Below are positions 17,478 to 35,073 of a stretch of 64,000 nucleotides of DNA, piece by piece. How positions within the stretch are numbered: the stretch's first letter is position 1; the number at the start of each line of letters is the position of its first letter. The stretch covers positions 2,855 through 66,854 of the forward strand of contig JAFAHS010000411.1 in NCBI GenBank assembly GCA_019237115.1, given 5' to 3'. A program made the position numbers and the translations under genes. The notes beneath the pieces are model-generated. The model was given only the letters and a program-made list of their open reading frames with translations, made no database searches and was not told the origin of the DNA. This stretch comes from Deltaproteobacteria bacterium. GTDB taxonomy: Bacteria > Desulfobacterota > Binatia > Binatales > Binataceae.

Positions 17478-17487
17478 ACCACTCTCC

Positions 17488-24800: not shown

Positions 24801-24965
24801 GGCGATTGCGTGAAGCTGCGCGATCATATCGCGCAGGAAGGTCGGGTAGGTCCCGATCCGATACGCCAGCGCGGCAAGCCCCGGACGGTTGAACGGCGCG
24901 CTCGGCAGCGGCGTGGAAACGCAACAGCCGCAAGCATTGAGCTTGGGTGTCGGCCCGTTGCTCAC
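21888..24965 (-). CDS. baseplate wedge protein, Baseplate_J-like paralogue 2 (Afp12/gp7-like position)
   Basis: 1025 aa. N-terminus 'NACGCC...FNRPGLAALAYRIGTYPTFLRDMIAQL'. 'TFGDGVTGARLPSG.QNVAATYRTGIG..GNV' and 'NPLAASGGAGPE' are J-like blocks. Confidence 0.65.
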   Translation of the reverse strand: MSNGPTPKLNACGCCVSTPLPSAPFNRPGLAALAYRIGTYPTFLRDMIAQLHAIAIPDGANQGSRPLAALTTRAADDPVIALLDAWAVVADVLTFYQERIANEGYLRTATERLSVLELARTIGYELSPGVAASAFLAFTADDSPGAPATVAVSRGVKVQNVPAQGKLPQTFETIEDLQAFASRNALRPRLTRPQDLALVFDPQHLFDKDDPEPSGLRLYLLGTSAGFPAGSGVLISAAQAQVYPLSSETIPDPVPAIRIDGSIYFTGIATNLQKGDRLLLVGRNDNNSPTVQTKLMIVRGVEAQANLNRTRVDLREDLGQSPEPPPFTPVKFPTPVLFPEPAAFNLANTSAILAGSISESDLNAFVTMNDWDRDKLVALAPFATATPPPTPPPPNPSAVLPAPDPGIFAMRTHAGIFGNNAPFYSSLLAPAGEGFPKPAGAPGGNFLYPNDWDSSGWPVWNDSITNQFYQNADLYLEQVVPGILRDSWIVLEFPSGDPAVFRVGTVSEAALAGFGLSGRVTGVRLTRIDGSSEITGADKASTFLVRTTIAYAQSEALDLIDLPITDDIAAGTTELMLNGLVLGMSVGQAVALTGARTAGDAPGVTASEVLTLEQITHVGGFTTLRFDGGLANSYVRSSPAGAPKEVGLIINANVARATHGETFTEVLGSGDASQSNQVFTLKRPPLTYVAAATPSGAASTLEVRVNDLEWQEVPALFGAAPTDQDYIVRLEDDGTTTVTFGDGVTGARLPSGNQNVAATYRTGIGVDGNVDAGALTILQTRPPGIRSVTNPLAASGGAGPEVLDRARQNAPLKVLTLDRIVALDDYENFARAFAGIGKAQAAALLSGGRYLVHLTIAGVNGAAVDPESALYASLIGAIGLAKDPVQQVLAANYQARFFDISASVLVDQPRFVAADVLQAAQTALQNAFSFDARAFAQPVTAAEVINVIQSVAGVIATDLTALFPIIGGVGRFEGGLLPILGGVRRFGGVPPMLCASPARLAGGAILPAELLLVNPAGIALSEMQP

Positions 24966-27430
24966 GCGCCACCCTCCATGAAGAACTCGAGCCGCCCGTT
25001 TTCGGCCTCGTTGGGATCATTGTCCAGGCGTGCGATCTCAAGCCGGGCCATCTCGATTCGCCCGGCCAGCAGCTCGCCGTGCGGTGTCTCGCCGAAGCGT
25101 TGAAAGCGATTGGGCGCGTAGGCGGTGGTATCCAACCAAAGCACGCCCGGCACTTGCATCGCCGCGGCCACGATCCGGCTCAAATAGACCGGCTGGCCGA
25201 AAGTGAAGTTGTCAGGATGGAAAAAGCCGCGGCGGCCGTCGGGCAGGTCGCGATTGCTGAAGGTTTCCAGCAACGCCTCTTCGACATCGCCCTGGAAGTA
25301 GGCCGGCGCGACGTACACGGTGAAGGCAATATCCAGCGGCGCGAAAATCGGCGCCTCCACTTCCAGGTCGAAGCCGGCCAGACGCAGCGGCTCCAGAAAG
25401 TCGCGGATTGTGGCGCGAAAAGCATCATTCACCGGCTGGCCCCCGCGGCGCTGCACCGTGACGAACATCGTGTGCCAAGTGCCGGTGAAGCGCAGCGTCG
25501 CTTCGGCCTTCTCCACTTCCGGATGGCGGCCGGCGGCATCCGCGTAGTCTTGCTCCGTTACCGCGCGTTGCTGCGTACGGAAGGCCTGTGGCGCATTGAG
25601 GCGCACCTCGTCGTCCGGCTCGGGATCGATGCCGCCCTGGCTCGGGAGCGGATTCCGGACATTCTTGATCCCGCTAACGTTGGTGACGACGTGCGCGATC
25701 GCTTCGGCGCCGACGTGCCCGGCGCTGCCGTTTCCGATGCGATAATTCGCAGTGAAACCGGCATTCGGTGCCGCGCCTAAAATTCCGTCACCAAACCGCA
25801 AGGTCGCCGTGCCGTCATCCTCGGTTTCCACCACGAAATTGAGGTCGAAAGGCCCGGCGCTGAGCAGATCGCGCAGTGGCGTCCACTTCACCTGGTTGGT
25901 GTCCGACAAAATCACCGCCGGCGCCGCCGCGCGCGGATCCTGCACGACCGCCGCTGACGCCGCCCGCGCGCTATCGAACGGAGTGGCGAACGTGATCCCG
26001 GTGTTTTGCAGGCGGGGGCGGAACCTTCCTGGCGTGAACTCCATTGTCTCGCCTGCGACAGTCGCGCCGTGATCCGCCAGCACCAGGTTGGCGCGCGCGA
26101 CGCTTACCGCCAACTTCAGCCCCGAACTCGTGGTCGTCGACAGACAGAGTGGAAACGGCAAGGCGTCCTCCGCGCCCCACCCGATCTCCACCACCGCAGT
26201 ATTGTTCAGAGGGTCGGTACTCGGCTTGGGCGGTGCGGTTAGACGCACGACCCAGCGATGCGCCGGGTCGGCATCCGCCGCGGCCCCGGTGGCCGGGCCG
26301 ATGACCTCCTCGAACAGCACCGCATCTCCAACCGCTAGTTGAATCGGCCCGCCGTCACCTTGGCTCAGCAAAGTAGCCTCGGTAGCGCCCTTGGGCAGAC
26401 AGCAGGAATCGTCGCCCCAGGTGTAAAACTGCATCTGGTTATTCGCCGCGTGCAGGGTAACATCGTGGAGGGTCTCAAAAACCACCGCCCCCTGCGTCGA
26501 AGCTGTCTGCACCTGGTCGAGGGGGAAAGCGCCGCGCGGCGCGTTCACCTGGGTTAGCATCTGGGTTTTCCTGCCGGCCGAGGGTCCCGGCAGGGTGAGT
26601 CCATCGGCGCTGCTGCCGGATGCGACCTCGATATGAACCCACGCCCGAGCGTTCACGCCGTCATGCATCGCGTAGTCCAGCAGGCGCACATGACGCCGCA
26701 CCGATGTGCGTCTGCGTGCAGTGCCGAGGTAAGCTTCCGTCGCGACCGCGTCCTGGTAATAACTCAGGTGGTCACCGGCGTAGGCAAGTAGTTCAACCAG
26801 CGCGACTCCGAGATCGGCCGGGTTCTGTTCCTGCCAAGCGGGCATCGTGACCGACATGCGGTCCAGCATCAGCGTGCGGAAGCTGGAATAGTCTTTGGCG
26901 AGATAATCGATCGGCGGCGCGGCGGGGATGCTCTCCGGCGGACAGACCGCCGTCGGCTGGCAATCGAAATCGCTAGGGCACTCAACCTTGAAAGAAAAAT
27001 CGAGCGCCGCAAACTGCACATCAAAGTTGGACGGCGGCTCGGCGTCCGTAGGGGAGCTAACCACACGCAGCGTGTAAGTGGAAAAATCCCCCGCCGAATC
27101 GGTGCGGACTACCAGTATATGATCCGCGTTCGGAAGGCTCGCAAAAAAAGCCCGCTCAGCCGCGTTCGCCGGCGGGGCGGGCACTGACGACGCCGGGAAG
27201 ATCCAAACGGCGTTGACGGGGCTCACGCGCGTGCCGCCCTCGATGCGCAGGTTTTGCACCGTCAGAGCCGACGCCGGTTGGAACAGATGGACCAGCAGCG
27301 TCTGTTGTGGCGGGCTGCCCGCGGGCGCCTGCTGATCCAGCACGTCCAGAAAATCGAGGCCATTTAGCGCCGGATTGGCCAGGACCGCCTGACGCCGCCT
27401 GCGATTCTCGCAGATATACTGCGCCGGCAT
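24962..27430 (-). CDS. baseplate wedge protein, Baseplate_J-like (Afp11/gp6-like)
   Basis: 822 aa. 'LRFGDGILGAAPNAGFTANYRIGNGSAGHVGAEAI' and 'NPLPSQGGIDPEPDDEVRLNAPQAFRTQQRAVTEQDY'. Confidence 0.75.
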   Translation of the reverse strand: MPAQYICENRRRRQAVLANPALNGLDFLDVLDQQAPAGSPPQQTLLVHLFQPASALTVQNLRIEGGTRVSPVNAVWIFPASSVPAPPANAAERAFFASLPNADHILVVRTDSAGDFSTYTLRVVSSPTDAEPPSNFDVQFAALDFSFKVECPSDFDCQPTAVCPPESIPAAPPIDYLAKDYSSFRTLMLDRMSVTMPAWQEQNPADLGVALVELLAYAGDHLSYYQDAVATEAYLGTARRRTSVRRHVRLLDYAMHDGVNARAWVHIEVASGSSADGLTLPGPSAGRKTQMLTQVNAPRGAFPLDQVQTASTQGAVVFETLHDVTLHAANNQMQFYTWGDDSCCLPKGATEATLLSQGDGGPIQLAVGDAVLFEEVIGPATGAAADADPAHRWVVRLTAPPKPSTDPLNNTAVVEIGWGAEDALPFPLCLSTTTSSGLKLAVSVARANLVLADHGATVAGETMEFTPGRFRPRLQNTGITFATPFDSARAASAAVVQDPRAAAPAVILSDTNQVKWTPLRDLLSAGPFDLNFVVETEDDGTATLRFGDGILGAAPNAGFTANYRIGNGSAGHVGAEAIAHVVTNVSGIKNVRNPLPSQGGIDPEPDDEVRLNAPQAFRTQQRAVTEQDYADAAGRHPEVEKAEATLRFTGTWHTMFVTVQRRGGQPVNDAFRATIRDFLEPLRLAGFDLEVEAPIFAPLDIAFTVYVAPAYFQGDVEEALLETFSNRDLPDGRRGFFHPDNFTFGQPVYLSRIVAAAMQVPGVLWLDTTAYAPNRFQRFGETPHGELLAGRIEMARLEIARLDNDPNEAENGRLEFFMEGGA

Positions 27431-27431
27431 C

Positions 27432-27785
27432 TTAAACCCCGCGCGCGAATTGCTCGACCTGGCGCACCTGGCTGGCGCGAATTACATATTGAACCGTCAC
27501 CAGCAGGGTTGAATCCTGAACTTCGGCGCGCACCGCCTCTGCCTGGATCAGATCGCCGAGCCACTGCTGCAAAGTCCCCTGCACCAGAAACTGCGTCGCG
27601 GCTGCCAGCTCGTCGCTCGACGGGGCGAACACCATCTGCAAAAGGCCGCTGCCCAGCGTCGGCCGGTTCACTCGTTCGCCGGGACTGGTGAACAACAATT
27701 GTTCAATCAGATCGTGCAGATGATCGTCGCCGACGATTGCGGTGCGACCGCGGCCGTCAATCTGAAACGGATAAGCGATATTCAT
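27432..27785 (-). CDS. GPW/gp25-like baseplate wedge protein
   Basis: 117 aa from 'MNIAYPFQIDGRGRTA...LIEQLLFTSPGERVNRPTLGSGL'. ATGA overlap with the PAAR-like gene. Confidence 0.8.
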   Translation of the reverse strand: MNIAYPFQIDGRGRTAIVGDDHLHDLIEQLLFTSPGERVNRPTLGSGLLQMVFAPSSDELAAATQFLVQGTLQQWLGDLIQAEAVRAEVQDSTLLVTVQYVIRASQVRQVEQFARGV

Positions 27786-28105
27786 GTTCCGAGAACCCGC
27801 GTTTGGGTTAGCGCGACCAGCAGCGGAGTGCCGGTGGGCGCGCACAGCGCCTTGCTGTCCTGCAGCAGCACGGGGAATCCATTGGCCAGAACCCTGGTCG
27901 CGGCGATCGAGAACACGCCCGTGACGCACGGCCCGTTACCCGCGGGCGGCGGCGGCAAGGCGCACGCCGCGACCTGGTAGGGAGCGGAGATCAACACCGC
28001 CGGCTGGCCGCCGACGAGGACCCGTGGGAAGGTTGCGGTGGGGGTCGCCATGCCGCCGTGCGCACACTTCACCATCGAGCTTACATTCAACAAGAACCCG
28101 GGCAT
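27782..28105 (-). CDS. PAAR-like spike-tip protein (DUF4280-type)
   Basis: 107 aa. 'VKCAHGG...VLVGGQP...TRVLANGFPVLL...ALCAPTG' is the PAAR-like pattern. It lies directly downstream of the spike gene. Confidence 0.65.
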   Translation of the reverse strand: MPGFLLNVSSMVKCAHGGMATPTATFPRVLVGGQPAVLISAPYQVAACALPPPPAGNGPCVTGVFSIAATRVLANGFPVLLQDSKALCAPTGTPLLVALTQTRVLGT

Positions 28106-28169: not shown

Positions 28170-28685
28170 CTACACGATCGTCAATGCGCCTTGGTTGATA
28201 TTCACGGCGGGACCGGTCATCACGATGCTCGCCCCTTTGCCGTTCTGGATGAAAATGCCGGTGTCGTTCACCAGGATGAAGGCGCCGGTTGCGCTCTTAA
28301 TCAGGATGCCGCCGGTCGGGCCGGGCACGTCGCTGATTACCAGGCCGTTCTGCAGCGGCGTCTGCATCACGATTCCCGGCACGCCGGGCGGAATCGTAAG
28401 CGAGAGCGCGGGAACTTCGACCGTCGAGCCCCAGAAGGTTCCGACCCAGATCGGGTAGTCGAGGTCGCCCTGCTCGAATTCGACCCAAACGCCGGCGCCG
28501 ATCATGGGAATGCTGAACACGCCGGTTTGCGGTCCGCCAACCGGCAGCGACGGCAGCGCCCAGGTCAGCAGCGGGGTGATTGCGGCATCAGGCACCAACA
28601 CCTGCAACCGGCCGCGCCGCTCCGGATCGACGTTATTGATTACCGAGCCGCGGAACTTGCCTAAAAATTTCTTGCATTCGATCAT
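28170..28685 (-). CDS. gpV/gp5-like OB-fold spike protein (Phage_base_V, VgrG C-module-like)
   Basis: 171 aa. 'FRGSVINNVDPERRGRLQVLVP...PSLPVGG...GVWVEFEQGDLDYPIWVGTFW'. Confidence 0.8.
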   Translation of the reverse strand: MIECKKFLGKFRGSVINNVDPERRGRLQVLVPDAAITPLLTWALPSLPVGGPQTGVFSIPMIGAGVWVEFEQGDLDYPIWVGTFWGSTVEVPALSLTIPPGVPGIVMQTPLQNGLVISDVPGPTGGILIKSATGAFILVNDTGIFIQNGKGASIVMTGPAVNINQGALTIV

Positions 28686-29812
28686 GCGGGCACCGTCGAT
28701 ACTGTTGAGATCAAACCGTTGCGCGTGAGCGTAAAATCCTGCGTGTACTCGCCGCGCTTCAGATGATGGGTGACGCTGTTGACGAAGTACAAACCATCGA
28801 AAGCGAGCCCCGCGCCGCGCACGCCGACCAGCCGGCGCGGCTTGAGCGTCTGCCCGTAGCGCAGCACGTCGAGACTGCCCTGCGCGCTGACCGCGTCAGC
28901 CTTCTGCGCGGCGATCGCAAGCCCTCGCAATGCGGCCTGCACCGGCGAAAGCTTCCCAGCGCCCTCCACGTGATCGACCTTCAGGGAGAGCGGAGGAATC
29001 AACCCCAGCGGCGGGTTGATCGGCGTAATTTCGGGGACCGGAATTGGAATCGGCAGCTTCGTGATCTCCTCCTGAATCACGAGAATCGGCAACGTCGCCT
29101 GTTGGCTGTTGAAACTGAAGCTCAGCGATTCGACGTTGGTGTGCGCGTCCATGTCGATATTCAGCGCCGGTTGCAGCGGACCGATTTTTACCGGCGGTCC
29201 CCAATAGGCGACGCTCGTGCCCGCAACCGGGCCCGGATAGACGTGGAAGACGTAGCCGGCTTCATCGGCAAGCTTCTTGAGGTAACAAAGATCAGTCCCC
29301 TGATGAATTGGCACGCGGTCCACCGGAATCGGCACGTCGATCAGCACGCTGGGAAACACGAGCGGAATCACTCCCAGGAACGCGTATTTGGCGAGGATCA
29401 ATAGAACCCGCGCCTCCGGCGGCATCGCCGGGTATTCGATTAGCCCCGTAAAGTCGATGTAATCCATCACGCGCGAGAGGTCTTCGCCTGTGATCGTGAG
29501 GACCGGGCCTTGCATGGCGCTGCCTCCGGTAACCTCGTGGTTCGTCATGACGCCGTCGATGAGAACGTCGGGCGTGCCGTTGAGCGTCACGACGATCAGC
29601 ACGCGCACGAGCGGAATCTGCGCGCCGCCCGCGACCAGAAAAAGCGTATGCAGCGGCGAGTTCTTGCTCAGGTTGAATTTCAACTGGAAGCCGCTCGCAT
29701 GCTCGGTGCGCGAAGTGACTTCGACGCTGATGAGCGCGTCCAGCACCTCCTTGGAGACCGGCAGCGGCTCAATCGGGCCGATCATCAGCGTAAGGTCGAT
29801 TCCCTTAAGCAT
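28682..29812 (-). CDS. gpD/gp27-like baseplate hub (late control D family)
   Basis: 376 aa from 'MLKGIDLTLMIGP'. C-terminal 'GLYFVNSVTHHLKRGEYTQDFTLTRNGL' is typical of gpD-like hubs. Confidence 0.7.
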   Translation of the reverse strand: MLKGIDLTLMIGPIEPLPVSKEVLDALISVEVTSRTEHASGFQLKFNLSKNSPLHTLFLVAGGAQIPLVRVLIVVTLNGTPDVLIDGVMTNHEVTGGSAMQGPVLTITGEDLSRVMDYIDFTGLIEYPAMPPEARVLLILAKYAFLGVIPLVFPSVLIDVPIPVDRVPIHQGTDLCYLKKLADEAGYVFHVYPGPVAGTSVAYWGPPVKIGPLQPALNIDMDAHTNVESLSFSFNSQQATLPILVIQEEITKLPIPIPVPEITPINPPLGLIPPLSLKVDHVEGAGKLSPVQAALRGLAIAAQKADAVSAQGSLDVLRYGQTLKPRRLVGVRGAGLAFDGLYFVNSVTHHLKRGEYTQDFTLTRNGLISTVSTVPA

Positions 29813-30167
29813 TCGGGGTTCCCGGCAGCCCTTGCGGCAGGGCAATCTTTAGCGTGAGCCCCGGCTGCTCCAGCTCCTCCGGCCGCATCGCGCCATTGGC
29901 GTCGCAGAGCCGCCAATAAAGCTCGGGGTCGCCGAGAAACTGCGCCGCCAGGTTGTCCAGCCGCTCGCCCTGCTTGACGCTATGCTCCTGGATTGGCGTG
30001 AGGCGGTCGGGCGCGGGGACAAAGCGCCGGCGCACGTAGACAATCGTCTGCCCGTCCGGCGCGAGAAAAGTCGCTGTATCGATGCCGTTGTACCGGCTGT
30101 TGGCGGGAAACAGGCTCGCCTTGAGCCCCGTAAATTGCAGCAGCGCCTGCAGGCTTGGCGTGCTCAT
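29805..30167 (-). CDS. LysM-like small protein (Afp7 C-module equivalent)
   Basis: 120 aa. 'HSVKQGERLDNLAAQFLGDPELYWRLCDANG...PG..LKIALP' is LysM/tail-X-like. Confidence 0.55.
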   Translation of the reverse strand: MSTPSLQALLQFTGLKASLFPANSRYNGIDTATFLAPDGQTIVYVRRRFVPAPDRLTPIQEHSVKQGERLDNLAAQFLGDPELYWRLCDANGAMRPEELEQPGLTLKIALPQGLPGTPNA

Positions 30168-30820
30168 CAGATGCTCTCCAAGCCCAGCGCGCCCAAGGTC
30201 CCCGCGCTGAGCCCGCTCAGGACTTCCTTCTGGATCATGTACGCCATGAAGATATTGCCGCCCTTATCGTTGAAGCCGAGATCGTTCACGTTCAGCACGC
30301 GCATCCCGAGGCTGACCCTGGCGCGAATCGGGTTGAGATTGGGGTCGAAGGCCTCCTCGGTGATGCTGAAGTCGCTGATCCGCACCGGAATTATCCGGCT
30401 TCGGCTCCAGACGAAGAGACTGAGCGGCGCCTCGACCGGCGCGATTTCGAGCACTCCGGACTGCGCGAGGCGGTTGGCGGCCAAGAGCTGACTGCTCGGC
30501 GGATAGACGACGGTCTCGAACGCGGCGAGCTGCGGATGAATTCCAAACTGGGTGACGAGCGGATTTTGATCGGGAAATTCAAGCTGATCGGCGGCGTCGA
30601 TCTCCGCCTCCAGTTTGAACGTTTCGATCGCCGGCCCGGTTAGCCGCAGCGCTTCGAGGCGGTTCTGCGTCTCGGCCCGGACCGTTTGGGCTTGCAGCGT
30701 GCGGGTCAGTGAATCGGGATTGTACTGGAGGATGATCACGCGCTGCACGACGCCGCTGTTGGCGTCGACCAGCACAAGCCCAGCTTTGAGGAGGCGGGGG
30801 GAATTAGGGAATGCGCTCAT
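30167..30820 (-). CDS. CIS tube-initiator-like protein (Afp7 N-module equivalent)
   Basis: 217 aa. 'LLKAGLVLVD...VIILQYNPDSLTRTL' and 'PLSLFVWSRSRIIPVRISDFSITEEAFDPNLNPIRARVSLGMRVL' are remembered from eCIS/T6SS-like tube-family proteins. Confidence 0.6.
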   Translation of the reverse strand: MSAFPNSPRLLKAGLVLVDANSGVVQRVIILQYNPDSLTRTLQAQTVRAETQNRLEALRLTGPAIETFKLEAEIDAADQLEFPDQNPLVTQFGIHPQLAAFETVVYPPSSQLLAANRLAQSGVLEIAPVEAPLSLFVWSRSRIIPVRISDFSITEEAFDPNLNPIRARVSLGMRVLNVNDLGFNDKGGNIFMAYMIQKEVLSGLSAGTLGALGLESI

Positions 30821-30892: not shown

Positions 30893-31417
30893 TTAGCGCT
30901 CTCTGGTGACCGACTGGAGCAAGGCCCAGTAATCAATAGCTCCCTTAATCCGGCTCGGTGGAGGATCTAGACCCTGGCTTTTCCAGTCGATCACCCGCCG
31001 CTCCTCCATAAGCTCCAGAAAGCATTTGATGGCATCCCGCTCCTCCGGACTGAATTGCGTTGCGCGAGCACGGAAAAAGTCAGCCCTCCATCCGGCTGAT
31101 CTTCGCGGCGGCGTCAGATTGAAGATAACGAAATCCCTGAGCACTTCGGCCTCTTCGCGGGAACCAAGGCACGCCATCATATAGGCGGGCAGGTAATGCC
31201 GGAACGCACTGGGAGTAAACAAGGGTAGCGCTTGCGAATGATCGCGCAACATCTCCCTGGACAAATCGGACCACCTCTGTGCTCTAAAAGCCCGCGCGAC
31301 TTCCGTGCACTCAGGATCGCCCTCGTGGCTACCAACGAGTTCGTCGTCGCTCGGCTTCGGGGTTTTCGCGAACGCATCTTTAATTTTCGCTGTGACCTCC
31401 TCTGCGCTCTGGGCCAT
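30893..31417 (-). CDS. putative immunity/cognate protein of the upstream effector
   Basis: 174 aa with no signal peptide. ATG is 1 nt after the effector TAA. GC is lower (34/60 and 33/60 in two lines I counted). 'F.PSAFRHYLPAYMMA' resembles small immunity-like DUF proteins. Confidence 0.45.
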   Translation of the reverse strand: MAQSAEEVTAKIKDAFAKTPKPSDDELVGSHEGDPECTEVARAFRAQRWSDLSREMLRDHSQALPLFTPSAFRHYLPAYMMACLGSREEAEVLRDFVIFNLTPPRRSAGWRADFFRARATQFSPEERDAIKCFLELMEERRVIDWKSQGLDPPPSRIKGAIDYWALLQSVTRER

Positions 31418-31418
31418 G

Positions 31419-33410
31419 TTAGGGCCCTCCGCACTTGGCCATCATTACCGCTTCGCACTCTCGCAGCCCGGCGTAAAGCTGAGCTATCTGCTGCATGTGC
31501 CCTTCGTATCCAGGATCGCCCTTTTGAAAACAGTTCTTCTGGAAGTTCACCCTGGCAGTGATGCAGGCGTTGTAGGCCGCCACTTTCGCCGTAGCGGTCG
31601 CACAAGTGTCGTTTTGTATCGAGCATCCGCGAACCCGATCGCACAGCTTCTTCATCGCGTCGTGGAGCCGGTCAACTTCCTCGTTAGTGCACCTGCGACT
31701 CTTCGGGGGCGCTGCTGGCTGCGGCGCTGGCGCCGGCTGGGGCGCAGGTTGCGGGGCGGGAGCCACTCTCTGACGACCGGCTACGGTTGATTCTTGGTCG
31801 AACCACCGGCGCAACGTTTCGAGATCCGTCTCGCCGAACGGAAACGTTGGTCGTAGGGTTTGCGGGGCGGAGGGTTCGTAGCCCGGCGCCGCGGGCTGAT
31901 GACAACTTCCGATACAAACGCCCAGCGGGTTCGGGAGAATGACGTAGCCTTGCTTGTGTAAGGCGATCTGGAAGTTGACATAGAAGAGAAGGTCGACAGT
32001 TGCCACCGTGATGTAGATTCCCAGCGCTACCGGAATGGCAATAGTAGCAGCGGGAGCAAGCGCTGGAGCCGCCTCGGCCGCGGGAGCGAGAGCCGGAGCG
32101 GCTTCAGCAGCGCCGCCCGCCTCGCCTAGCAACTCCGCGCTGCCCTCTATCCCTCGCTCGGCGAACCATCGGGTGCCGGCCCTCTCAAGTGCAGTCTTCG
32201 CTGCGCTTCCGGTAGCCGTTTGCGCTGTACTAGGCGCCAAAGCGCCCGCCAGCCCCACTGCCCCCACCCCTCCGAGCTGAAGCCGCGTGGTGTCGAGCCG
32301 CGATGAGCCGGATGGCGCCGCCTCGCTTGCCGGAGGTTCGCCCAGCCCGGCGTTCAACCGTCCCGTCCGGTAGGCGTTGTAGGCTTCCTGTTCCGTCAAG
32401 ACGTGGGAGCAGTCGCCCTCGCGGCATTTCCTCACTGCATTGGCAGCTTCTACCAGTCCCGCCCGACGGTACATCGATTCGACGCCGGGGGCAGACTTCT
32501 CATATGGGGCCGAGGGTGCCGGAGACACGTGTACGCCAGGCTCTCCACCGACAGCGGGGGGCGGTTGTTGGGCGGTCGACGCTGGCGGTGTGTTACGTTC
32601 CTGGTTGCGGCGCGTCACCTCCGCGTCCAGCGTATCCGAATTCTCTTGTAGTGCCGCGTAATCGGGCGAATCCGGCGTAAGCGATCCCAGCTTCTCTCGC
32701 ACCTTGTTGACCAGCGACGCAAGGTCTTGCTCGCTGAGGCCGCGCACTTCGTCCGGAGTCAGTTGAGCCGTAAATGGGTCCAGGTTCGTCTTTCGCTGAA
32801 TGACCGCGGAAGTTCTAAGGTGCGTCGCGCTGGAACCGGCTGAACCTAGCCCCTGTTCGGCTTTGTTCGCCTCTACCTCGAAGAGGTCACTAGGAGGTCC
32901 GATTACAAGGTCGCCTCGGCTAAACGCGCCTGACGTAACACCGCCGCTGGCGCCGGTTTGTTGAGTAACGTGCGAGAGTTCGTGTGCGAGCAGCTTCCGA
33001 CCTCCCATCGTCGCCGGCGCGTATTGCCCCGCTCCGAACACCACGTCCCGCCCGACCGTGTACGCGACCGCACTCACCGCGCGCGCCGATTCCGCGGCCT
33101 GATCGTCCGCGTGGATCCGAACTTTGCTGAAGTCGTGGCCGAAGCGCGGCTCGAAGAAGGCCCGCGTTGCCTTATCCAGGGGTCGTCCCGGCGACCGCAG
33201 CACGTTGTGTACGATCGGCGGCGCTAGCGACGGCGCGGCGCCGCCGCCGTTCCCCCGGCGCTGCAAGCCCATCGCGTTCTGCTTGCACTCGTCGCATTCG
33301 CCCTCGGCCTTCATCGATCCGCCGCAGGCGCATTTGCGCTGCAAGATTCCGAAGAGCGTTCCGGACTGGGTCGGGGCCGCTTTCGGGGCGGGCTGCCGTT
33401 CGGTGTTCAT
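31419..33410 (-). CDS. DUF4157-headed eCIS effector candidate 2 (hydrophobic segment plus Cys-rich C-terminal domain)
   Basis: 663 aa. 'LQRKCACGG..C.EC', 'VLRSPGRPLDKATRAFFEPRFGHDFSKVRIHAD...LLAHELSHVTQQ'. Hydrophobic 'IAIPVALGIYITVATVDLLFYVNFQIAL'. C-terminal 'CTNEEVDRLHDAMKKLCD..RGCS..DTC......YNAC...VNFQKNCF..GDPGYEGH'. Confidence 0.7.
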   Translation of the reverse strand: MNTERQPAPKAAPTQSGTLFGILQRKCACGGSMKAEGECDECKQNAMGLQRRGNGGGAAPSLAPPIVHNVLRSPGRPLDKATRAFFEPRFGHDFSKVRIHADDQAAESARAVSAVAYTVGRDVVFGAGQYAPATMGGRKLLAHELSHVTQQTGASGGVTSGAFSRGDLVIGPPSDLFEVEANKAEQGLGSAGSSATHLRTSAVIQRKTNLDPFTAQLTPDEVRGLSEQDLASLVNKVREKLGSLTPDSPDYAALQENSDTLDAEVTRRNQERNTPPASTAQQPPPAVGGEPGVHVSPAPSAPYEKSAPGVESMYRRAGLVEAANAVRKCREGDCSHVLTEQEAYNAYRTGRLNAGLGEPPASEAAPSGSSRLDTTRLQLGGVGAVGLAGALAPSTAQTATGSAAKTALERAGTRWFAERGIEGSAELLGEAGGAAEAAPALAPAAEAAPALAPAATIAIPVALGIYITVATVDLLFYVNFQIALHKQGYVILPNPLGVCIGSCHQPAAPGYEPSAPQTLRPTFPFGETDLETLRRWFDQESTVAGRQRVAPAPQPAPQPAPAPQPAAPPKSRRCTNEEVDRLHDAMKKLCDRVRGCSIQNDTCATATAKVAAYNACITARVNFQKNCFQKGDPGYEGHMQQIAQLYAGLRECEAVMMAKCGGP

Positions 33411-34780
33411 CAGGGGTTTCCCCGCGGAATAAACAGCGTCGCTCGTACCTGCCGATCGCGTTCGTCGATGGTTTTCGAGGCGGTGGTGTCGCCGCAGTTG
33501 TGGATGCCGTCTTCCAGCTTGGCGCAGGCTGCCGGTATCAGCAGAGGATCGGCCAGGCGGTCGGCGGAGATACCTGCTTCCGCCAGGGCGTGCGCGACCG
33601 ATCGCACTCGGTACTCGCCTAACTCGCGATTGTGCGCCGCCGGTCCCTCGATCGAAGCCTTGCCCGTGAGTTGCACCTTGAACTGAGGCCCGTTTTTCAG
33701 CCAGGTTACAACGCCGTCAAGAGTCACGCTGCCCGGCGCGGTGAGACTGTCGCGCAACGCCTTCTGATCGCTCACGACGGAGCCCGGCCGATCGAGCTTG
33801 AAGTAGATATCCATGCTGACCGTGAGCGGCGGCGTCGGCGCAAGGTTTCGCTCCGGAGGAGGAAGATCCGAACGACTCGGATTCCCGCCGTCCTTGGTCC
33901 CGGTCCCCGGCAAGCCGGGAAGCGTCGGAGTGAGGAGGTCGAATTTCACGCAGTCCGCGCCCTTGGCGTACCGGTCGGTCGGGCAACAGCGGCCGAGGAT
34001 CGTCAGGCGGTAGGGCGGGCAGCAGCGGTCGACCGACGAACCCTCGCAACACATCCCGTCCACCCGTTTGCGCCACCCGGGCGCGCAGTCCACGTTTCCG
34101 GCGCCGCCTTGTCCCGAGCCCTTTAAGGCTCCGAGACCCTTGTTGATATCTTCGAGTGATGGCGCATCGATCGGTCCCGGAATAATCGGCTTGATATCCA
34201 GACGGTCCAACGGAGACGGTAGCGGGATCAGGGGCGGTGGTTCCTTCTTGGTCTGATCATCGCTCTGAGGCTGGCGGCGCAGGCGCGGCGGTTCCTGGAT
34301 GGCCGGCGTTTGCGGCACGCCCCCGCGTCCCATCCGTGCCGCCTCGCGCTCGGCGGCATCGCCGGGCGCACCCAATTGGATCTGCTCAGGGATTCCTTGT
34401 GAGCCGCTCCCGGTTTGCTGCATCACGTGCGCAAGTTCGTGCGCCAGCGAATCCAGACCTGCCGCGCTTCGTGGCTCGTATTCGCCGCGATTAAAGACGA
34501 CCTCATTCCCCACCGCATAAGCCTTCGCGTTCACCGCCTGCGCCGATTCCGCCGCGCGCGCGTCGGTATGCACCCGCACGCGGCTGAAGTCGTAGCCAAA
34601 GCGCTTCTCCATCAAGGCGCGCGCCGCCATATCCAGCGGCCGGCCCGGCGAATGCAGGACTTCGCGCACGATCGGCGGAACTCCGCTCATGCCATTCCGC
34701 CTAGCGCCGAAACGCGCGGCGGCGGCATGATTCCGCATAGGCGCCGACGACTTCGCCGCGATCTGCCGCTCTCCCATCAT
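33410..34780 (-). CDS. DUF4157-headed eCIS effector candidate 1 (Cys-rich middle plus OmpA-like C-terminus)
   Basis: 456 aa. 'VLHSPGRPLDMAARALMEKRFGYDFSRVRVHTD...LAHELAHVMQQ'. Middle 'CAPGWRKRVDGMCCEGSSVDRCCPPYRLTILGRCCP'. C-terminal 'QLTGKASIEGPAAHNRELGEYRVRSVAHALAEAGISADRL'. Confidence 0.7.
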   Translation of the reverse strand: MMGERQIAAKSSAPMRNHAAAARFGARRNGMSGVPPIVREVLHSPGRPLDMAARALMEKRFGYDFSRVRVHTDARAAESAQAVNAKAYAVGNEVVFNRGEYEPRSAAGLDSLAHELAHVMQQTGSGSQGIPEQIQLGAPGDAAEREAARMGRGGVPQTPAIQEPPRLRRQPQSDDQTKKEPPPLIPLPSPLDRLDIKPIIPGPIDAPSLEDINKGLGALKGSGQGGAGNVDCAPGWRKRVDGMCCEGSSVDRCCPPYRLTILGRCCPTDRYAKGADCVKFDLLTPTLPGLPGTGTKDGGNPSRSDLPPPERNLAPTPPLTVSMDIYFKLDRPGSVVSDQKALRDSLTAPGSVTLDGVVTWLKNGPQFKVQLTGKASIEGPAAHNRELGEYRVRSVAHALAEAGISADRLADPLLIPAACAKLEDGIHNCGDTTASKTIDERDRQVRATLFIPRGNP

Positions 34781-35073
34781 CGCTTGCCGTGTCCTCCCGT
34801 CAGTCCGCGATGCACCGATTGGGCGACTTGAATGCCGATCGCCTGGGCATTCGCGCCCTGTGCGATCCGGAGCGATCCGCTGTCCACCGCGGGCTTGCCT
34901 CCCGGCGCCTGCCTCAGCCGGCCCAGGCCGCGCTCGGCGATCAGCCGCGTCAACTCACGTCTGATCCCTTCGGCGATCCGGAAACGATCGCCGGGAGGGA
35001 ATCCCTCGAGCGCCAGTTCGTCGATCCGGACCCTGACCTTCCCCGCCTGCGTTTTGTCGATGGTCGTGCGCAT
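34777..35073 (-). CDS. small conserved hypothetical protein (possible effector adaptor)
   Basis: 98 aa. ATGA-coupled to effector 1 and 8 nt downstream of the ATPase gene. No family recognised. Confidence 0.45.
   Translation of the reverse strand: MRTTIDKTQAGKVRVRIDELALEGFPPGDRFRIAEGIRRELTRLIAERGLGRLRQAPGGKPAVDSGSLRIAQGANAQAIGIQVAQSVHRGLTGGHGKR

What the first reader, a model, noticed from the sequence alone, without database searches (positions are those of the whole stretch)
30893..35073. Effector/immunity cassette embedded in the middle of the structural operon
Four non-structural genes sit between the ATPase gene and the tube-initiator gene:
- a 98-aa unknown protein
- two paralogous DUF4157-headed proteins (456 and 663 aa)
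- a 174-aa cytoplasmic protein that starts 1 nt after the second effector's stop

Published eCIS surveys, as I recall them, report DUF4157 as an N-terminal domain enriched on eCIS-associated toxins. The two heads here are clearly homologous: 'VLHSPGRPLD.AARALMEKRFGYDFSRVRVHTD...LAHELAHVMQQTG' against 'VLRSPGRPLDKATRAFFEPRFGHDFSKVRIHAD...LAHELSHVTQQTG'. Their C-terminal regions are unrelated, which is the polymorphic-toxin logic of a constant loading or trafficking head with a variable warhead.

The mid-operon position differs from Afp/PVC, where payloads trail the operon. It suggests payload and machine are co-translated and assembled together.
Basis: partly seen in the sequence, partly recalled or inferred. 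Interest (0 to 1): 0.8.

Follow-up and report, generated by a model that had tools for sequence, protein, structure and literature searches.

The report
eCIS cargo slot with toxin-immunity pair
Between the loading ATPase and the baseplate genes of a phage-tail-like injection machine sit two cargo proteins with a shared head and different toxic tails, plus a likely antidote gene; the arrangement is real but is the normal, already described layout for this family of machines.

Summary
Four tightly coupled minus-strand ORFs lie at 30893-35073. Both large proteins carry the DUF4157/eCIS_core head (Pfam E 1e-30 and 7e-32; heads 49% identical, E 6e-34) with intact HExxH and unrelated C-termini.

- The 663-aa protein ends in Ntox16. 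The 456-aa protein ends in an OmpA-like peptidoglycan-binding domain. Zhang et al. 2012 list both as PVC-metallopeptidase toxin types (Ntox16, Tox-OmpA).
- In 66 related islands from more than 10 phyla, the ATPase-to-tube-initiator slot holds 0-5 DUF4157 genes (60/66 have at least one). 129 C-termini fall into 81 clusters. So the mid-operon position is the rule for this lineage and a genuine swap hot-spot. The published S. davawensis Tme effector is reported just upstream of the baseplate genes, next to the tube initiator.
- The 98-aa protein is not cassette. Its family follows the ATPase in 65/66 islands, including all six with no DUF4157 gene.
- The 174-aa DUF6714 protein follows Ntox16 in the window and 17 other loci, behind DUF4157, RHS or standalone Ntox16. 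It is probably the cognate immunity protein, which Zhang 2012 left blank.

Verdict: new member of a known kind, modest interest.

The parts
35081..37036 (-). AAA+ ATPase (Afp15/Pvc15-like), upstream border of the cargo slot
   Evidence: Pfam AAA E = 6.4e-28 plus WHD E = 1.4e-18. An orthologue lies upstream of the slot in 66 related loci.
34777..35073 (-). 98-aa small conserved protein (p98 family). Core accessory gene of this eCIS lineage, not cassette. Function unknown.
   Evidence: The family lies directly after the ATPase in 65/66 loci, including all 6 with an empty slot. 2,560 representative clusters at E <= 1e-3. No Pfam, NCBIfam or PHROG hit. AF2 model pLDDT 77, a beta-hairpin plus 2 helices, with no PDB fold match.
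33410..34780 (-). 456-aa cargo protein: short N-terminal region, DUF4157 metallopeptidase head, Cys-rich linker, OmpA-like peptidoglycan-binding C-terminus (Tox-OmpA type)
   Evidence: Its C-terminal domain belongs to the largest cluster (9 members from several phyla). 9 slot C-termini (window excluded) hit Pfam OmpA, best E = 1.4e-15; at least L006 passes the cut-off (36.6 vs 27.2 bits).
34409..34639 (-). DUF4157/eCIS_core head of the 456-aa protein (residues 48-124), HELAH at 34427-34441
   Evidence: PF13699 E = 1.1e-30; coordinates checked.
33950..34087 (-). Cys-rich linker (8 Cys in 46 residues) of the 456-aa protein
   Evidence: The suggestion that it folds outside the cytoplasm is an inference.
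33554..33748 (-). OmpA-like domain of the 456-aa protein (residues 345-409), with an N-x2-L-x3-R-x3-V motif (NRELGEYRVRSV)
   Evidence: Pfam OmpA E = 2.7e-5, below the cut-off. Pal/OmpA chains in the PDB at E = 1.7e-4 to 2e-3. NCBIfam Pal/YiaD models at about 1e-5 to 1e-6.
31419..33410 (-). 663-aa cargo toxin: N-terminal region with a CxC...CxxC knuckle, DUF4157 head, long low-complexity linker, one TM-like helix, C-terminal Ntox16 toxin domain
33285..33332 (-). CACGGSMKAEGECDEC motif (CxC...CxxC) in the N-terminal region of the 663-aa protein
   Evidence: The motif occurs in 78/131 N-terminal regions of slot DUF4157 proteins, against 0.08 expected in shuffles.
32949..33182 (-). DUF4157/eCIS_core head of the 663-aa protein (residues 77-154), HELSH at 32970-32984
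   Evidence: PF13699 E = 6.6e-32.
31971..32048 (-). Hydrophobic TM-like helix (residues 455-480) preceding the toxin domain
   Evidence: Kyte-Doolittle value above 1.6. An equivalent segment is conserved in L001, L002, L058, L085 and L093.
31452..31694 (-). Ntox16 toxin domain (residues 573-653)
   Evidence: PF15523 E = 5.7e-11, 42.9 bits against a cut-off of 25. The 8 conserved Cys, the AR motif and the GD...H motif are all present.
30893..31417 (-). 174-aa DUF6714 protein, candidate cognate immunity protein for Ntox16
   Evidence: PF20461 E = 2.2e-15. It lies directly downstream of Ntox16 in the window, L001, L002 and 15 metagenome loci, including RHS-Ntox16 and standalone Ntox16. AF2 model pLDDT 88, all-alpha, with no PDB fold match. 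GC3 of 0.646, the lowest among the operon genes measured, against 0.75-0.84 for most core genes.
30167..30820 (-). 217-aa CIS_tube-like protein (putative tube initiator), downstream border of the slot
   Evidence: PF19266 E = 6.3e-4, below the cut-off. 60-87% identical across 80 loci from more than 10 phyla.

Best explanation
The region is the cargo slot of an extracellular contractile injection system (eCIS) of the lineage whose gene order is: sheath, tube, (tape-measure-like), cap, AAA+ ATPase, small p98 protein, [cargo], tube initiator, spike, baseplate, fibres.

What the slot holds here:
- Two cargo proteins of the PVC-metallopeptidase/DUF4157 polymorphic-toxin class.
- One immunity gene.

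Proposed mechanism (inferred by analogy with AlgoCIS Cgo1/Cgo2, PVC payloads and Streptomyces Tme/Sle2):
1. Each cargo is made in the cytoplasm with a disordered N-terminal region.
2. The adjacent AAA+ ATPase recognises that region and threads the cargo into the tube lumen, or docks it on the spike/tube-initiator complex, during assembly.
3. Contraction expels the cargo into a target cell.
4. The HExxH head may then cleave off or help refold the C-terminal module.

The 663-aa protein delivers an Ntox16 toxin domain preceded by a membrane-inserting helix. The producer, and its kin if injected, is protected by the cytoplasmic 174-aa DUF6714 protein, which binds and neutralises Ntox16. Having an immunity gene implies a bacterial target.

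The 456-aa protein delivers a Cys-rich, OmpA-like peptidoglycan-binding module that would act in a target periplasm.

The 98-aa protein is a conserved core accessory of the machine, possibly an ATPase or loading cofactor. It is not payload.

Shown here: domain content, homology of the heads, hot-spot behaviour of the slot, Ntox16-DUF6714 linkage, conservation of p98.
Inferred: loading, injection, processing, toxicity, neutralisation.
For: Domains:
- PF13699 in both large proteins, Ntox16 above its cut-off, a weak OmpA-like hit, and DUF6714. OmpA/Pal PDB hits support the OmpA-like fold.
- The heads are homologous and the tails unrelated.
- HExxH is intact in both heads. The conserved Ntox16 residues are intact.

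Comparative data, from 66 related islands with both borders present:
- Slot length is 343-8942 nt.
- It holds 0, 1, 2, 3, 4 or 5 DUF4157 genes in 6, 23, 18, 15, 3 and 1 loci respectively.
- 129 C-terminal domains fall into 81 clusters, 60 of them singletons.
- The Pfam census includes Aspzincin_M35, OmpA, PG_binding_1, Peptidase_M15_4, lysozyme, CHAP, Tlde1, GH-E nuclease, Ntox1, Ntox44, glutamine deamidase and transglutaminases.
- The closest island, L002 (Acidobacteriota), has orthologues of both cargoes and the immunity gene, plus two extra DUF4157 genes.
- L001 has the Ntox16 + DUF6714 pair in a different position in the slot.

Immunity evidence:
- DUF6714 of the p174 clade lies immediately downstream of an Ntox16 ORF in 15 of 20 metagenome loci that have enough upstream sequence.
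- Pfam confirms Ntox16 in RHS-Ntox16 (L100) and in small standalone Ntox16 ORFs (L095, L105, L107).

Literature:
- Constant PVC-metallopeptidase head with variable toxins; Ntox16 and Tox-OmpA are listed under PVC export (PMC3482391).
- DUF4157 is an eCIS core domain at the N-terminus of toxins (PMC8213781).
- Cgo1/Cgo2, two DUF4157 paralogues with different C-termini, fill the tube lumen (PMC8894135).
- The N-terminal region and Alg15 are needed for loading, while DUF4157 is dispensable (bioRxiv 10.64898/2026.05.27.728243).
- Tme and Sle2 associate with the spike/tube-initiator complex (PMC11126660, PMC13277306).
Against: - There is no experimental evidence for this locus: no particle proteomics and no toxicity or neutralisation assay.
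- The OmpA-like hit in the window protein itself is below Pfam's cut-off (24.9 bits against 27.2). A peptidoglycan-binding module is also not an obvious toxin.
- Ntox16 has eight conserved cysteines. That would fit an oxidising compartment better than the cytoplasm, where the immunity protein sits.
- 5 of 20 close DUF6714 loci lack a detectable Ntox16 upstream. More distant DUF6714 members sit in unrelated contexts.
- In AlgoCIS, DUF4157 is dispensable for loading, and Cgo1 toxicity is independent of HExxH. The proposed releasing-peptidase step is therefore speculative.
- The 456-aa protein lacks the CxC...CxxC element found in most slot cargoes.
Confidence: 0.75

Rival explanations
1. The DUF4157 proteins are assembly or structural factors rather than injected toxins. 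They might be tape-measure-like or baseplate-docking proteins, or adaptors that connect other effectors to the spike. The 456-aa OmpA-like protein would tether the particle, or the lysing producer's envelope, to peptidoglycan.
For: - DUF4157 is a near-core domain, present in 60/66 slots and named eCIS_core by Pfam.
- Small DUF4157 proteins such as Sle2 bind spike-complex proteins and bridge a separate effector (PMC13277306).
- Tme is tape-measure-like and sits at this same position (PMC11126660).
- OmpA-like domains are anchors, not enzymes.
Against: - Six related islands have no DUF4157 gene within the fetched DNA (up to 10 kb each side, less on short contigs) yet keep every other gene, so the domain is not needed to encode the machine.
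- Copy number varies from 0 to 5.
- C-termini are hypervariable and include bona fide toxin domains.
- A separate 304-aa ORF occupies the tape-measure-like position upstream of the cap gene, although it has no family hit.
- The 456-aa protein has no signal peptide, so it cannot reach the producer's own peptidoglycan unaided.
Confidence: 0.12
2. The 174-aa DUF6714 protein is not an immunity protein. It would instead be a chaperone or adaptor that stabilises the Ntox16 toxin or helps load it, like the T6SS adaptors DUF4123, DUF1795 and DUF2169.
For: - Genetic linkage alone cannot separate a binding chaperone from a binding immunity protein.
- Danov et al. suggest chaperone-type functions around eCIS toxins (PMC11297309).
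- Distant DUF6714 members are not next to toxins.
Against: - It is always encoded immediately downstream of the toxin domain.
- It travels with Ntox16 whatever the delivery head: DUF4157, RHS or none, including a 365-aa RHS_repeat+Ntox16 ORF downstream of a large RHS protein (L100). That is the classic behaviour of immunity genes in polymorphic toxin systems (PMC3482391), whereas adaptors track the delivery apparatus. That adaptors are usually encoded upstream of their effector is from my own knowledge.
- Its lower GC3 is shared with the toxin end of the 663-aa gene.
Confidence: 0.1
3. The cassette is a decayed or silent remnant: pseudogenised or non-expressed cargo genes carried along in the operon.
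For: GC3 is lower in the middle and 3' part of the 663-aa gene and in p174. The 663-aa protein contains long low-complexity Ala/Pro stretches.
Against: - All four ORFs are intact, and start and stop codons are coupled or overlapping.
- Catalytic and conserved motifs are intact.
- Near-identical copies (98-99%) of the 98- and 174-aa proteins, and a near-complete copy of the toxin's 3' end, exist in independent metagenome data.
- Orthologues are intact in L001 and L002.
Confidence: 0.03

Closest known systems
PVC-metallopeptidase (DUF4157/eCIS_core, PF13699) polymorphic toxins of 'PVC-type secretion' (Zhang, Aravind et al. 2012, PMC3482391; Geller et al. 2021, PMC8213781)
   Same: Constant N-terminal HExxH head with a variable C-terminal toxin, encoded next to the eCIS AAA+ ATPase. 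Both C-terminal types found here, Ntox16 and Tox-OmpA, are listed there as PVC-metallopeptidase-associated.
   Different: Zhang et al. list no immunity protein for Ntox16. They note that many PVC toxins lack adjacent immunity genes. Here an adjacent DUF6714 gene is consistently linked to Ntox16.
AlgoCIS cargo proteins Cgo1/Cgo2 of Algoriphagus machipongonensis (Xu et al. 2022, PMC8894135; PROCIS preprint 10.64898/2026.05.27.728243)
   Same: Two adjacent paralogues inside the eCIS cluster. Each has a disordered N-terminal region, a DUF4157 domain and a different C-terminus. [quoted passage not shown]
   Different: AlgoCIS is clade Ib, in Bacteroidota. Its C-termini are unrelated to those here, and no immunity gene is described. 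No loading data exist for this window.
Tme (BN159_7576) of the Streptomyces davawensis CIS and tme-like clusters (Nagakubo et al. 2024, PMC11126660)
   Same: DUF4157-headed effector located upstream of the baseplate genes, close to the tube-initiator gene (BN159_7578). Synteny is conserved across distant phyla. It has transmembrane helices upstream of a C-terminal toxin (nuclease) domain and co-purifies with the spike/tube-initiator complex.
   Different: Tme is a single giant protein (over 2,200 aa) that is tape-measure-like. Here there are two mid-sized cargoes with Ntox16 and OmpA-like ends, plus an immunity gene.
Afp/PVC payload regions (afp17-18; Pnf, Pdp1 and others; PMC11495950)
   Same: Variable payload genes encoded a short way downstream of the ATPase gene (after pvc15-pvc16 in PVC, after ATPase-p98 here). 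Loading depends on an N-terminal disordered signal and the AAA+ ATPase.
   Different: In Afp/PVC the payloads lie at the 3' end, after all the structural genes, and lack DUF4157. Here the baseplate/fibre module follows the payload, so the payload is mid-operon.
RHS/T6SS polymorphic toxin-immunity cassettes
   Same: The Ntox16 + DUF6714 pair also occurs behind RHS repeats and as a short ORF lacking a delivery head (L100, L095, L105, L107). This is typical toxin-immunity cassette mobility.
   Different: The delivery head here is DUF4157/eCIS, not RHS/PAAR/VgrG.

Membership tests
DUF4157 / eCIS_core (PVC-metallopeptidase) headed eCIS cargo | PF13699 domain above the gathering score | tested here: met
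   106.1 and 110 bits against a cut-off of 22.
DUF4157 / eCIS_core (PVC-metallopeptidase) headed eCIS cargo | HExxH zinc-binding motif in the head | tested here: met
   HELAH (residues 114-118) and HELSH (residues 143-147).
DUF4157 / eCIS_core (PVC-metallopeptidase) headed eCIS cargo | Head is N-terminal, followed by a variable C-terminal module | tested here: met
   Heads lie at residues 48-124 and 77-154. The tails are unrelated. 81 clusters among 129 tails in related slots.
DUF4157 / eCIS_core (PVC-metallopeptidase) headed eCIS cargo | Encoded within or next to an eCIS gene cluster | tested here: met
   Sheath, gp19 tube, Pvc16_N cap, AAA ATPase, Phage_base_V spike, gp25 and Baseplate_J are all on the same strand around it.
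DUF4157 / eCIS_core (PVC-metallopeptidase) headed eCIS cargo | Physically loaded into particles and released on contraction | not testable with these tools
   Needs proteomics or cryo-ET of purified particles.
Ntox16 polymorphic toxin domain (PF15523) | Pfam match above the gathering score, at the extreme C-terminus | tested here: met
   42.9 bits against 25, residues 573-653 of 663.
Ntox16 polymorphic toxin domain (PF15523) | Conserved R and [DNE]xxH residues (Zhang 2012) | tested here: met
   The conserved AR, GD...H and 8 Cys columns are all present in the window protein. I did not map the [DNE]xxH motif of Zhang 2012 rigorously onto these columns. A DRLH also occurs earlier in the domain but is not conserved.
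Ntox16 polymorphic toxin domain (PF15523) | Toxicity on expression | not testable with these tools
   No assay was possible. I found no published activity for Ntox16 (one search returned one paper only).
Cognate immunity protein of a polymorphic toxin | Encoded immediately downstream of the toxin, same strand, tightly coupled | tested here: met
   1-nt gap. The same arrangement is seen in L001, L002 and 15 metagenome loci.
Cognate immunity protein of a polymorphic toxin | Linkage follows the toxin domain, not the delivery head | tested here: met
   DUF6714 follows Ntox16 fused to DUF4157 (L084, L085, L087, L090), fused to RHS (L100) and standalone (L095, L105, L107).
Cognate immunity protein of a polymorphic toxin | Binds and neutralises the toxin | not testable with these tools
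   Needs co-expression rescue or pull-down. No complex prediction was available.
OmpA_C-like peptidoglycan-binding domain (PF00691) / Tox-OmpA | Pfam OmpA match above the gathering score | tested here: inconclusive
   The window protein scores 24.9 bits against 27.2. In the related slots, 9 C-termini hit OmpA at E <= 1e-3 (best E = 1.4e-15), and at least one cluster-mate passes the cut-off (L006, 36.6 bits). PDB Pal/OmpA hits have E = 1.7e-4 to 2e-3.
Afp/PVC-type payload (lineage Ia) | [quoted passage not shown] | tested here: not met
   The payload lies between the ATPase and the baseplate module and carries DUF4157. PVC layout taken from PMC11495950.

The most novel reading that the evidence does not exclude
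Two parts of this slot may be undescribed.

(a) The p174 clade of DUF6714 could be the first identified immunity family for Ntox16. That would mark this eCIS, and its relatives that carry the pair, as antibacterial weapons.

(b) The 98-aa protein belongs to a large unannotated family: about 2,560 clusters, no Pfam family and no solved fold. It is fixed between the AAA+ ATPase and the cargo slot in 65/66 islands. It could be a dedicated cofactor of the ATPase that recognises the conserved N-terminal 'LQRKCACG...CxxC' element of DUF4157 cargo and hands it to the tube. That would be a missing piece of the eCIS cargo-loading mechanism.
Probability: 0.25. Interest if true: 0.5.

Novelty: new member of a known kind. 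Interest (0 to 1): 0.3.

Why it matters
The locus adds one more example to an already well-described class, DUF4157-headed eCIS cargo. It is useful in three ways.

1. It gives a clean comparative demonstration that the ATPase-to-tube-initiator interval is the cargo integration hot-spot of a very widely transferred eCIS lineage: 0-5 cargo genes, and 81 tail families in 66 islands.
2. It proposes an immunity partner (DUF6714) for Ntox16, a toxin domain with no known activity or immunity. This implies a bacterial target and gives a directly testable toxin-antitoxin pair.
3. It flags a universal small protein next to the loading ATPase. That protein is a candidate for the poorly understood cargo-loading step, which matters for engineering eCIS as protein-delivery tools.

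Tried and rejected
- Word-indexed homology searches were nearly empty. The Ntox16 domain gave 2 hits, p98 gave 3 and DUF6714 gave 7. Context had to come from pattern-based locus retrieval instead.
- PDB sequence searches gave nothing meaningful for the 663-aa protein, p174 or the tube-initiator profile.
- Foldseek of confident AF2 models of p174 and p98 against the PDB gave no match: E > 1 and TM < 0.3. No fold-based function could be assigned.
- PHROGs and NCBIfam gave nothing for p98, p174 or the tube initiator.
- I tested whether the 'M-x-ERQ-x-A-x-K' start shared by the two window cargoes is a lineage-wide packaging motif. It is not: 10/131 N-terminal regions have it, with 3 expected from shuffles and a shuffle maximum of 10. 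I rejected it as a general signal. It appeared in only 8 of 67 loci, including the closest relatives L001 and L002.
- I checked whether distant DUF6714 members also sit behind toxins. Their upstream genes are unrelated (ABC-2 permease, hexapeptide transferase, unknowns). The immunity claim is therefore limited to the p174 clade.
- There is no excess of promoter-like or terminator-like sites inside the slot, so there is no evidence for an independent transcription unit.
- I considered that the slot genes are horizontally inserted foreign DNA. Only a modest GC3 dip is seen, in the 3' part of the 663-aa gene and in p174. The heads and the 456-aa gene match the operon.


Full report
**1. What is in the sequence**

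The window carries a long minus-strand operon for an extracellular contractile injection system (eCIS). The genes, in order, are:

| Gene | Coordinates |
|---|---|
| sheath | 40361-42373 |
| gp19-type tube | 39814-40434 |
| T4_baseplate-like protein | 39074-39877 |
| 304-aa protein | 38229-39143 |
| Pvc16_N cap | 37033-38232 |
| AAA+ ATPase | 35081-37036 |
| the four ORFs of the finding | 30893-35073 |
| CIS_tube-like 217-aa protein | 30167-30820 |
| 120-aa protein with a weak LysM/baseplate-like signal | 29805-30167 |
| 387-aa VgrG-related protein | 28682-29845 |
| Phage_base_V spike | 28170-28685 |
| PAAR-like protein | 27782-28105 |
| gp25 | 27432-27929 |
| two Baseplate_J proteins | 24962-27430, 21888-24965 |
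| large Ig-repeat / DUF6519 fibre-like proteins | 17488-21987, 14634-17516 |

The gene junctions are tight:
- ATPase stop, then 7 nt, then the p98 start.
- p98/p456 overlap as ATGA.
- p456/p663 overlap as TGATG.
- p663 stop, then 1 nt, then the p174 start.
- p174 stop, then 72 nt, then the next gene.

The interval has no excess of promoter-like or terminator-like sites. The four genes are therefore co-transcribed with the structural genes.

**2. The two large proteins**

- Both match Pfam PF13699 (DUF4157, now called eCIS_core) at E = 1.1e-30 and 6.6e-32.
- Their heads are 49% identical over 142 residues (E = 6e-34), and nothing else aligns.
- Both keep the HExxH motif: HELAH and HELSH.

The 663-aa protein has these parts:
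- An N-terminal region with a CxC...CxxC knuckle. The same element occurs in 78 of 131 related cargo N-termini, against about 0.1 expected by chance.
- The DUF4157 head, then a long Ala/Pro-rich linker.
- One TM-like helix at residues 455-480, conserved in relatives.
- A C-terminal Ntox16 domain: 42.9 bits against a cut-off of 25. It has the family's eight conserved cysteines and its AR and GD...H motifs.

The 456-aa protein has these parts:
- A short N-terminal region and the DUF4157 head.
- A Cys-rich stretch.
- An OmpA-like C-terminus. This is sub-threshold in Pfam (24.9 bits against 27.2). Supporting evidence is that Pal/OmpA PDB chains hit at E = 1.7e-4 to 2e-3, and that cluster-mates clear the Pfam cut-off.

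Neither protein has a signal peptide.

**3. Comparison with related islands**

A scan of one genome per species with the 217-aa protein returned 80 loci. They come from Acidobacteriota, Chloroflexota, Verrucomicrobiota, Cyanobacteria, Proteobacteria, Planctomycetota, Nitrospirota, Bacteroidota and others, plus a Methanosaeta archaeon. The closest is an uncultured Acidobacteriota MAG.

66 loci contain both the ATPase and the 217-aa gene. In these:
- The interval between the two genes ranges from 343 to 8942 nt, with a median of 4579 nt.
- It holds 0, 1, 2, 3, 4 or 5 DUF4157 heads in 6, 23, 18, 15, 3 and 1 loci respectively.
- In one locus (L041) the cargo genes are inverted.
- The 129 C-terminal regions fall into 81 BLASTP clusters, 60 of them singletons.
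- A Pfam census finds many toxin or cell-wall-active domains, while most C-termini have no Pfam hit. Those found include Aspzincin_M35, OmpA, PG_binding_1, Peptidase_M15_4, lysozyme, CHAP, Tlde1, GH-E nuclease, Ntox1, Ntox44, glutamine deamidase and transglutaminases.

The window's OmpA-type tail belongs to the largest cluster, with nine members from several phyla.

The closest island (L002) has orthologues of both window cargoes and of the 174-aa gene, plus two more DUF4157 genes. L001 has the Ntox16/DUF6714 pair first in the slot, followed by two other cargoes.

The interval is therefore the lineage's standard cargo slot and a true swap hot-spot.

**4. The 98-aa protein is not cassette**

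- An iterative profile search of ORFs in the slots finds its family directly after the ATPase in 65 of 66 islands. In the six islands with no DUF4157 gene, it is the only gene in the interval.
- A profile search of 1.84 billion representatives finds 2,560 clusters at E <= 1e-3 and 541 at E <= 1e-10, nearly all proteins of 80-150 aa.
- It has no Pfam, NCBIfam or PHROG family.
- Its AF2 model (pLDDT 77, a beta-hairpin plus two helices) matches no PDB fold.

It is a conserved accessory of unknown role. Its fixed position beside the loading ATPase makes a loading or assembly cofactor the most natural guess, but that is inference only.

**5. The 174-aa protein**

It matches DUF6714 (E = 2e-15). It is soluble and all-alpha (AF2 pLDDT 88), and its model matches no PDB fold.

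Retrieving DUF6714 loci from metagenomes and analysing them showed the following:
- Among 20 loci of the close clade with at least 250 nt of upstream sequence, 15 have an Ntox16-like ORF ending at or just before the DUF6714 start.
- Four of those Ntox16 ORFs carry DUF4157 heads. One carries RHS repeats and lies downstream of a large, 5'-truncated RHS protein (852 aa held). Several are short standalone ORFs of 140-200 aa. Pfam confirms Ntox16 in these.

Linkage that follows the toxin domain whatever the delivery head is the hallmark of a cognate immunity gene in polymorphic toxin systems.

Zhang et al. 2012 list no immunity protein for Ntox16. No paper in the searched library mentions DUF6714. 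More distant DUF6714 members are not next to toxins, so the claim is limited to this clade.

The toxin end of the 663-aa gene and the 174-aa gene have lower GC3 (0.65-0.71) than most of the operon's core genes (0.75-0.84; gp25 is 0.66). This is compatible with a separately acquired module.

**6. What is already known**

- Zhang et al. 2012 (PMC3482391) described the PVC-metallopeptidase as a constant N-terminal head on hypervariable toxins encoded beside the eCIS AAA+ ATPase. They list both Ntox16 and Tox-OmpA under it.
- Geller et al. 2021 (PMC8213781) made DUF4157 an eCIS core domain at the N-terminus of toxins.
- Xu et al. 2022 (PMC8894135) showed that two adjacent DUF4157 paralogues with different C-termini (Cgo1/Cgo2) fill the AlgoCIS tube.
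- A 2026 preprint (10.64898/2026.05.27.728243) shows that the disordered N-terminal region and the ATPase mediate loading, while DUF4157 is dispensable.
- Nagakubo et al. 2024 (PMC11126660) describe the DUF4157-headed Tme (BN159_7576), encoded upstream of the baseplate genes and close to the tube-initiator gene BN159_7578. Its synteny is conserved across phyla.
- A 2026 paper (PMC13277306) shows a DUF4157 protein binding spike-complex proteins.
- In PVC the order is pvc14 (tape measure), pvc15 (ATPase), pvc16 (cap), then payload (PMC11495950).

The feature conserved between PVC and this lineage is the position of payload genes just downstream of the ATPase/cap genes. Here p98 lies between ATPase and payload. 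In PVC, pvc16 does. What differs here is only that the baseplate module lies after the payload rather than before the ATPase.

**7. Mechanism proposed**

The first two steps rest on experiments in AlgoCIS and PVC. All steps are inferred for this locus.

- The ATPase, perhaps with p98, recognises the cargo N-termini and loads both cargoes into the tube or onto the spike complex.
- Contraction injects them into a bacterial target.
- The TM helix and Ntox16 domain of the 663-aa protein act on the target.
- The OmpA-like module of the 456-aa protein binds peptidoglycan.
- The 174-aa protein protects the producer and its kin.

The role of the HExxH head (release, refolding or docking) remains open.

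**8. Verdict**

The locus is a new member of a known kind. Two leads are modestly new: DUF6714 as the Ntox16 immunity partner, and the universal p98 family next to the loading ATPase.

Noticed in passing
window 34777-35073 (-); homologues such as L004:9627-10004 and L010:5448-5765: The 98-aa protein belongs to a large, unannotated family of small proteins. It has about 2,560 clusters at 50% identity, no Pfam family and no PDB fold match. The family sits directly after the eCIS ATPase in 65/66 related islands, even where no cargo gene is present.
   Followed up: yes
window 33285-33332 (-); N-termini of slot cargo in L001-L081: A 'LQRKCACG...C..C' (CxC...CxxC) zinc-knuckle-like element precedes the DUF4157 head in 78/131 related cargo proteins, and 'LQR[K/Q/R]' in 96/131. 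The 663-aa protein has it; the 456-aa protein does not. Its function is unknown. It may be part of the loading signal.
   Followed up: partly
window 31971-32048 (-); L058:7869-9887: A TM-like helix (…GTVAIPVALG.Y…ATVDL…) upstream of the toxin domain is conserved in several relatives. The Hymenobacter bucti protein (L058) shares the helix and the linker that follows but has a different extreme C-terminus. This suggests a second recombination point just before the toxin domain.
   Followed up: partly
L041:4334-9851: In a Candidatus Cybelea MAG, the three DUF4157 genes in the slot lie on the strand opposite to the ATPase and tube-initiator genes. It is also the one island where no p98 homologue was detected.
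   Followed up: no
L004, L008, L010, L014, L047, L077 (slots of 343-418 nt): Six related islands, several from Acidobacteriota, have an empty cargo slot containing only the p98 gene, and no DUF4157 head anywhere in the fetched locus (up to 10 kb each side of the tube-initiator gene, less on short contigs). Either their cargo is encoded elsewhere or these machines act without DUF4157 cargo.
   Followed up: partly
window 30167-30820 (-); L002-L081: The 217-aa tube-initiator-like protein is 60-87% identical across more than 10 bacterial phyla and a Methanosaeta archaeon. It is more conserved than the ATPase (44-74%). This points to extensive horizontal transfer of the eCIS lineage.
   Followed up: partly
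window 30893-32930 (-): GC3 drops to 0.65-0.71 in the middle and Ntox16 parts of the 663-aa gene and in the 174-aa gene. Most neighbouring structural genes and both DUF4157 heads have 0.75-0.84 (gp25 is also low, 0.66). This is compatible with separate acquisition of the toxin-immunity module.
   Followed up: partly
L108-L161 (for example L114:1330-1986, L121:3890-4558): A more distant DUF6714 subfamily (proteins of about 215 aa, at most 32% identical) is common in soil metagenomes. It has no Ntox16 or other recognisable toxin upstream. Its neighbours are unrelated genes: an ABC-2 permease, a hexapeptide transferase and unknowns.
   Followed up: partly
L006:7473-10004, L020:6489-8903, L040:5316-9866: Some slot ORFs contain two complete DUF4157 heads in one reading frame. 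These may be fused cargo genes or ORF-calling read-through. Several other heads carry an insertion that splits the domain (for example L002:3983-5683, L061, L068).
   Followed up: no
window 14634-21987 (-): The operon ends with a 1499-aa protein carrying about 8 He_PIG Ig repeats and a 960-aa DUF6519 protein with ASH/Ig domains. These are presumably the fibre or receptor-binding module. I did not examine them further.
   Followed up: no
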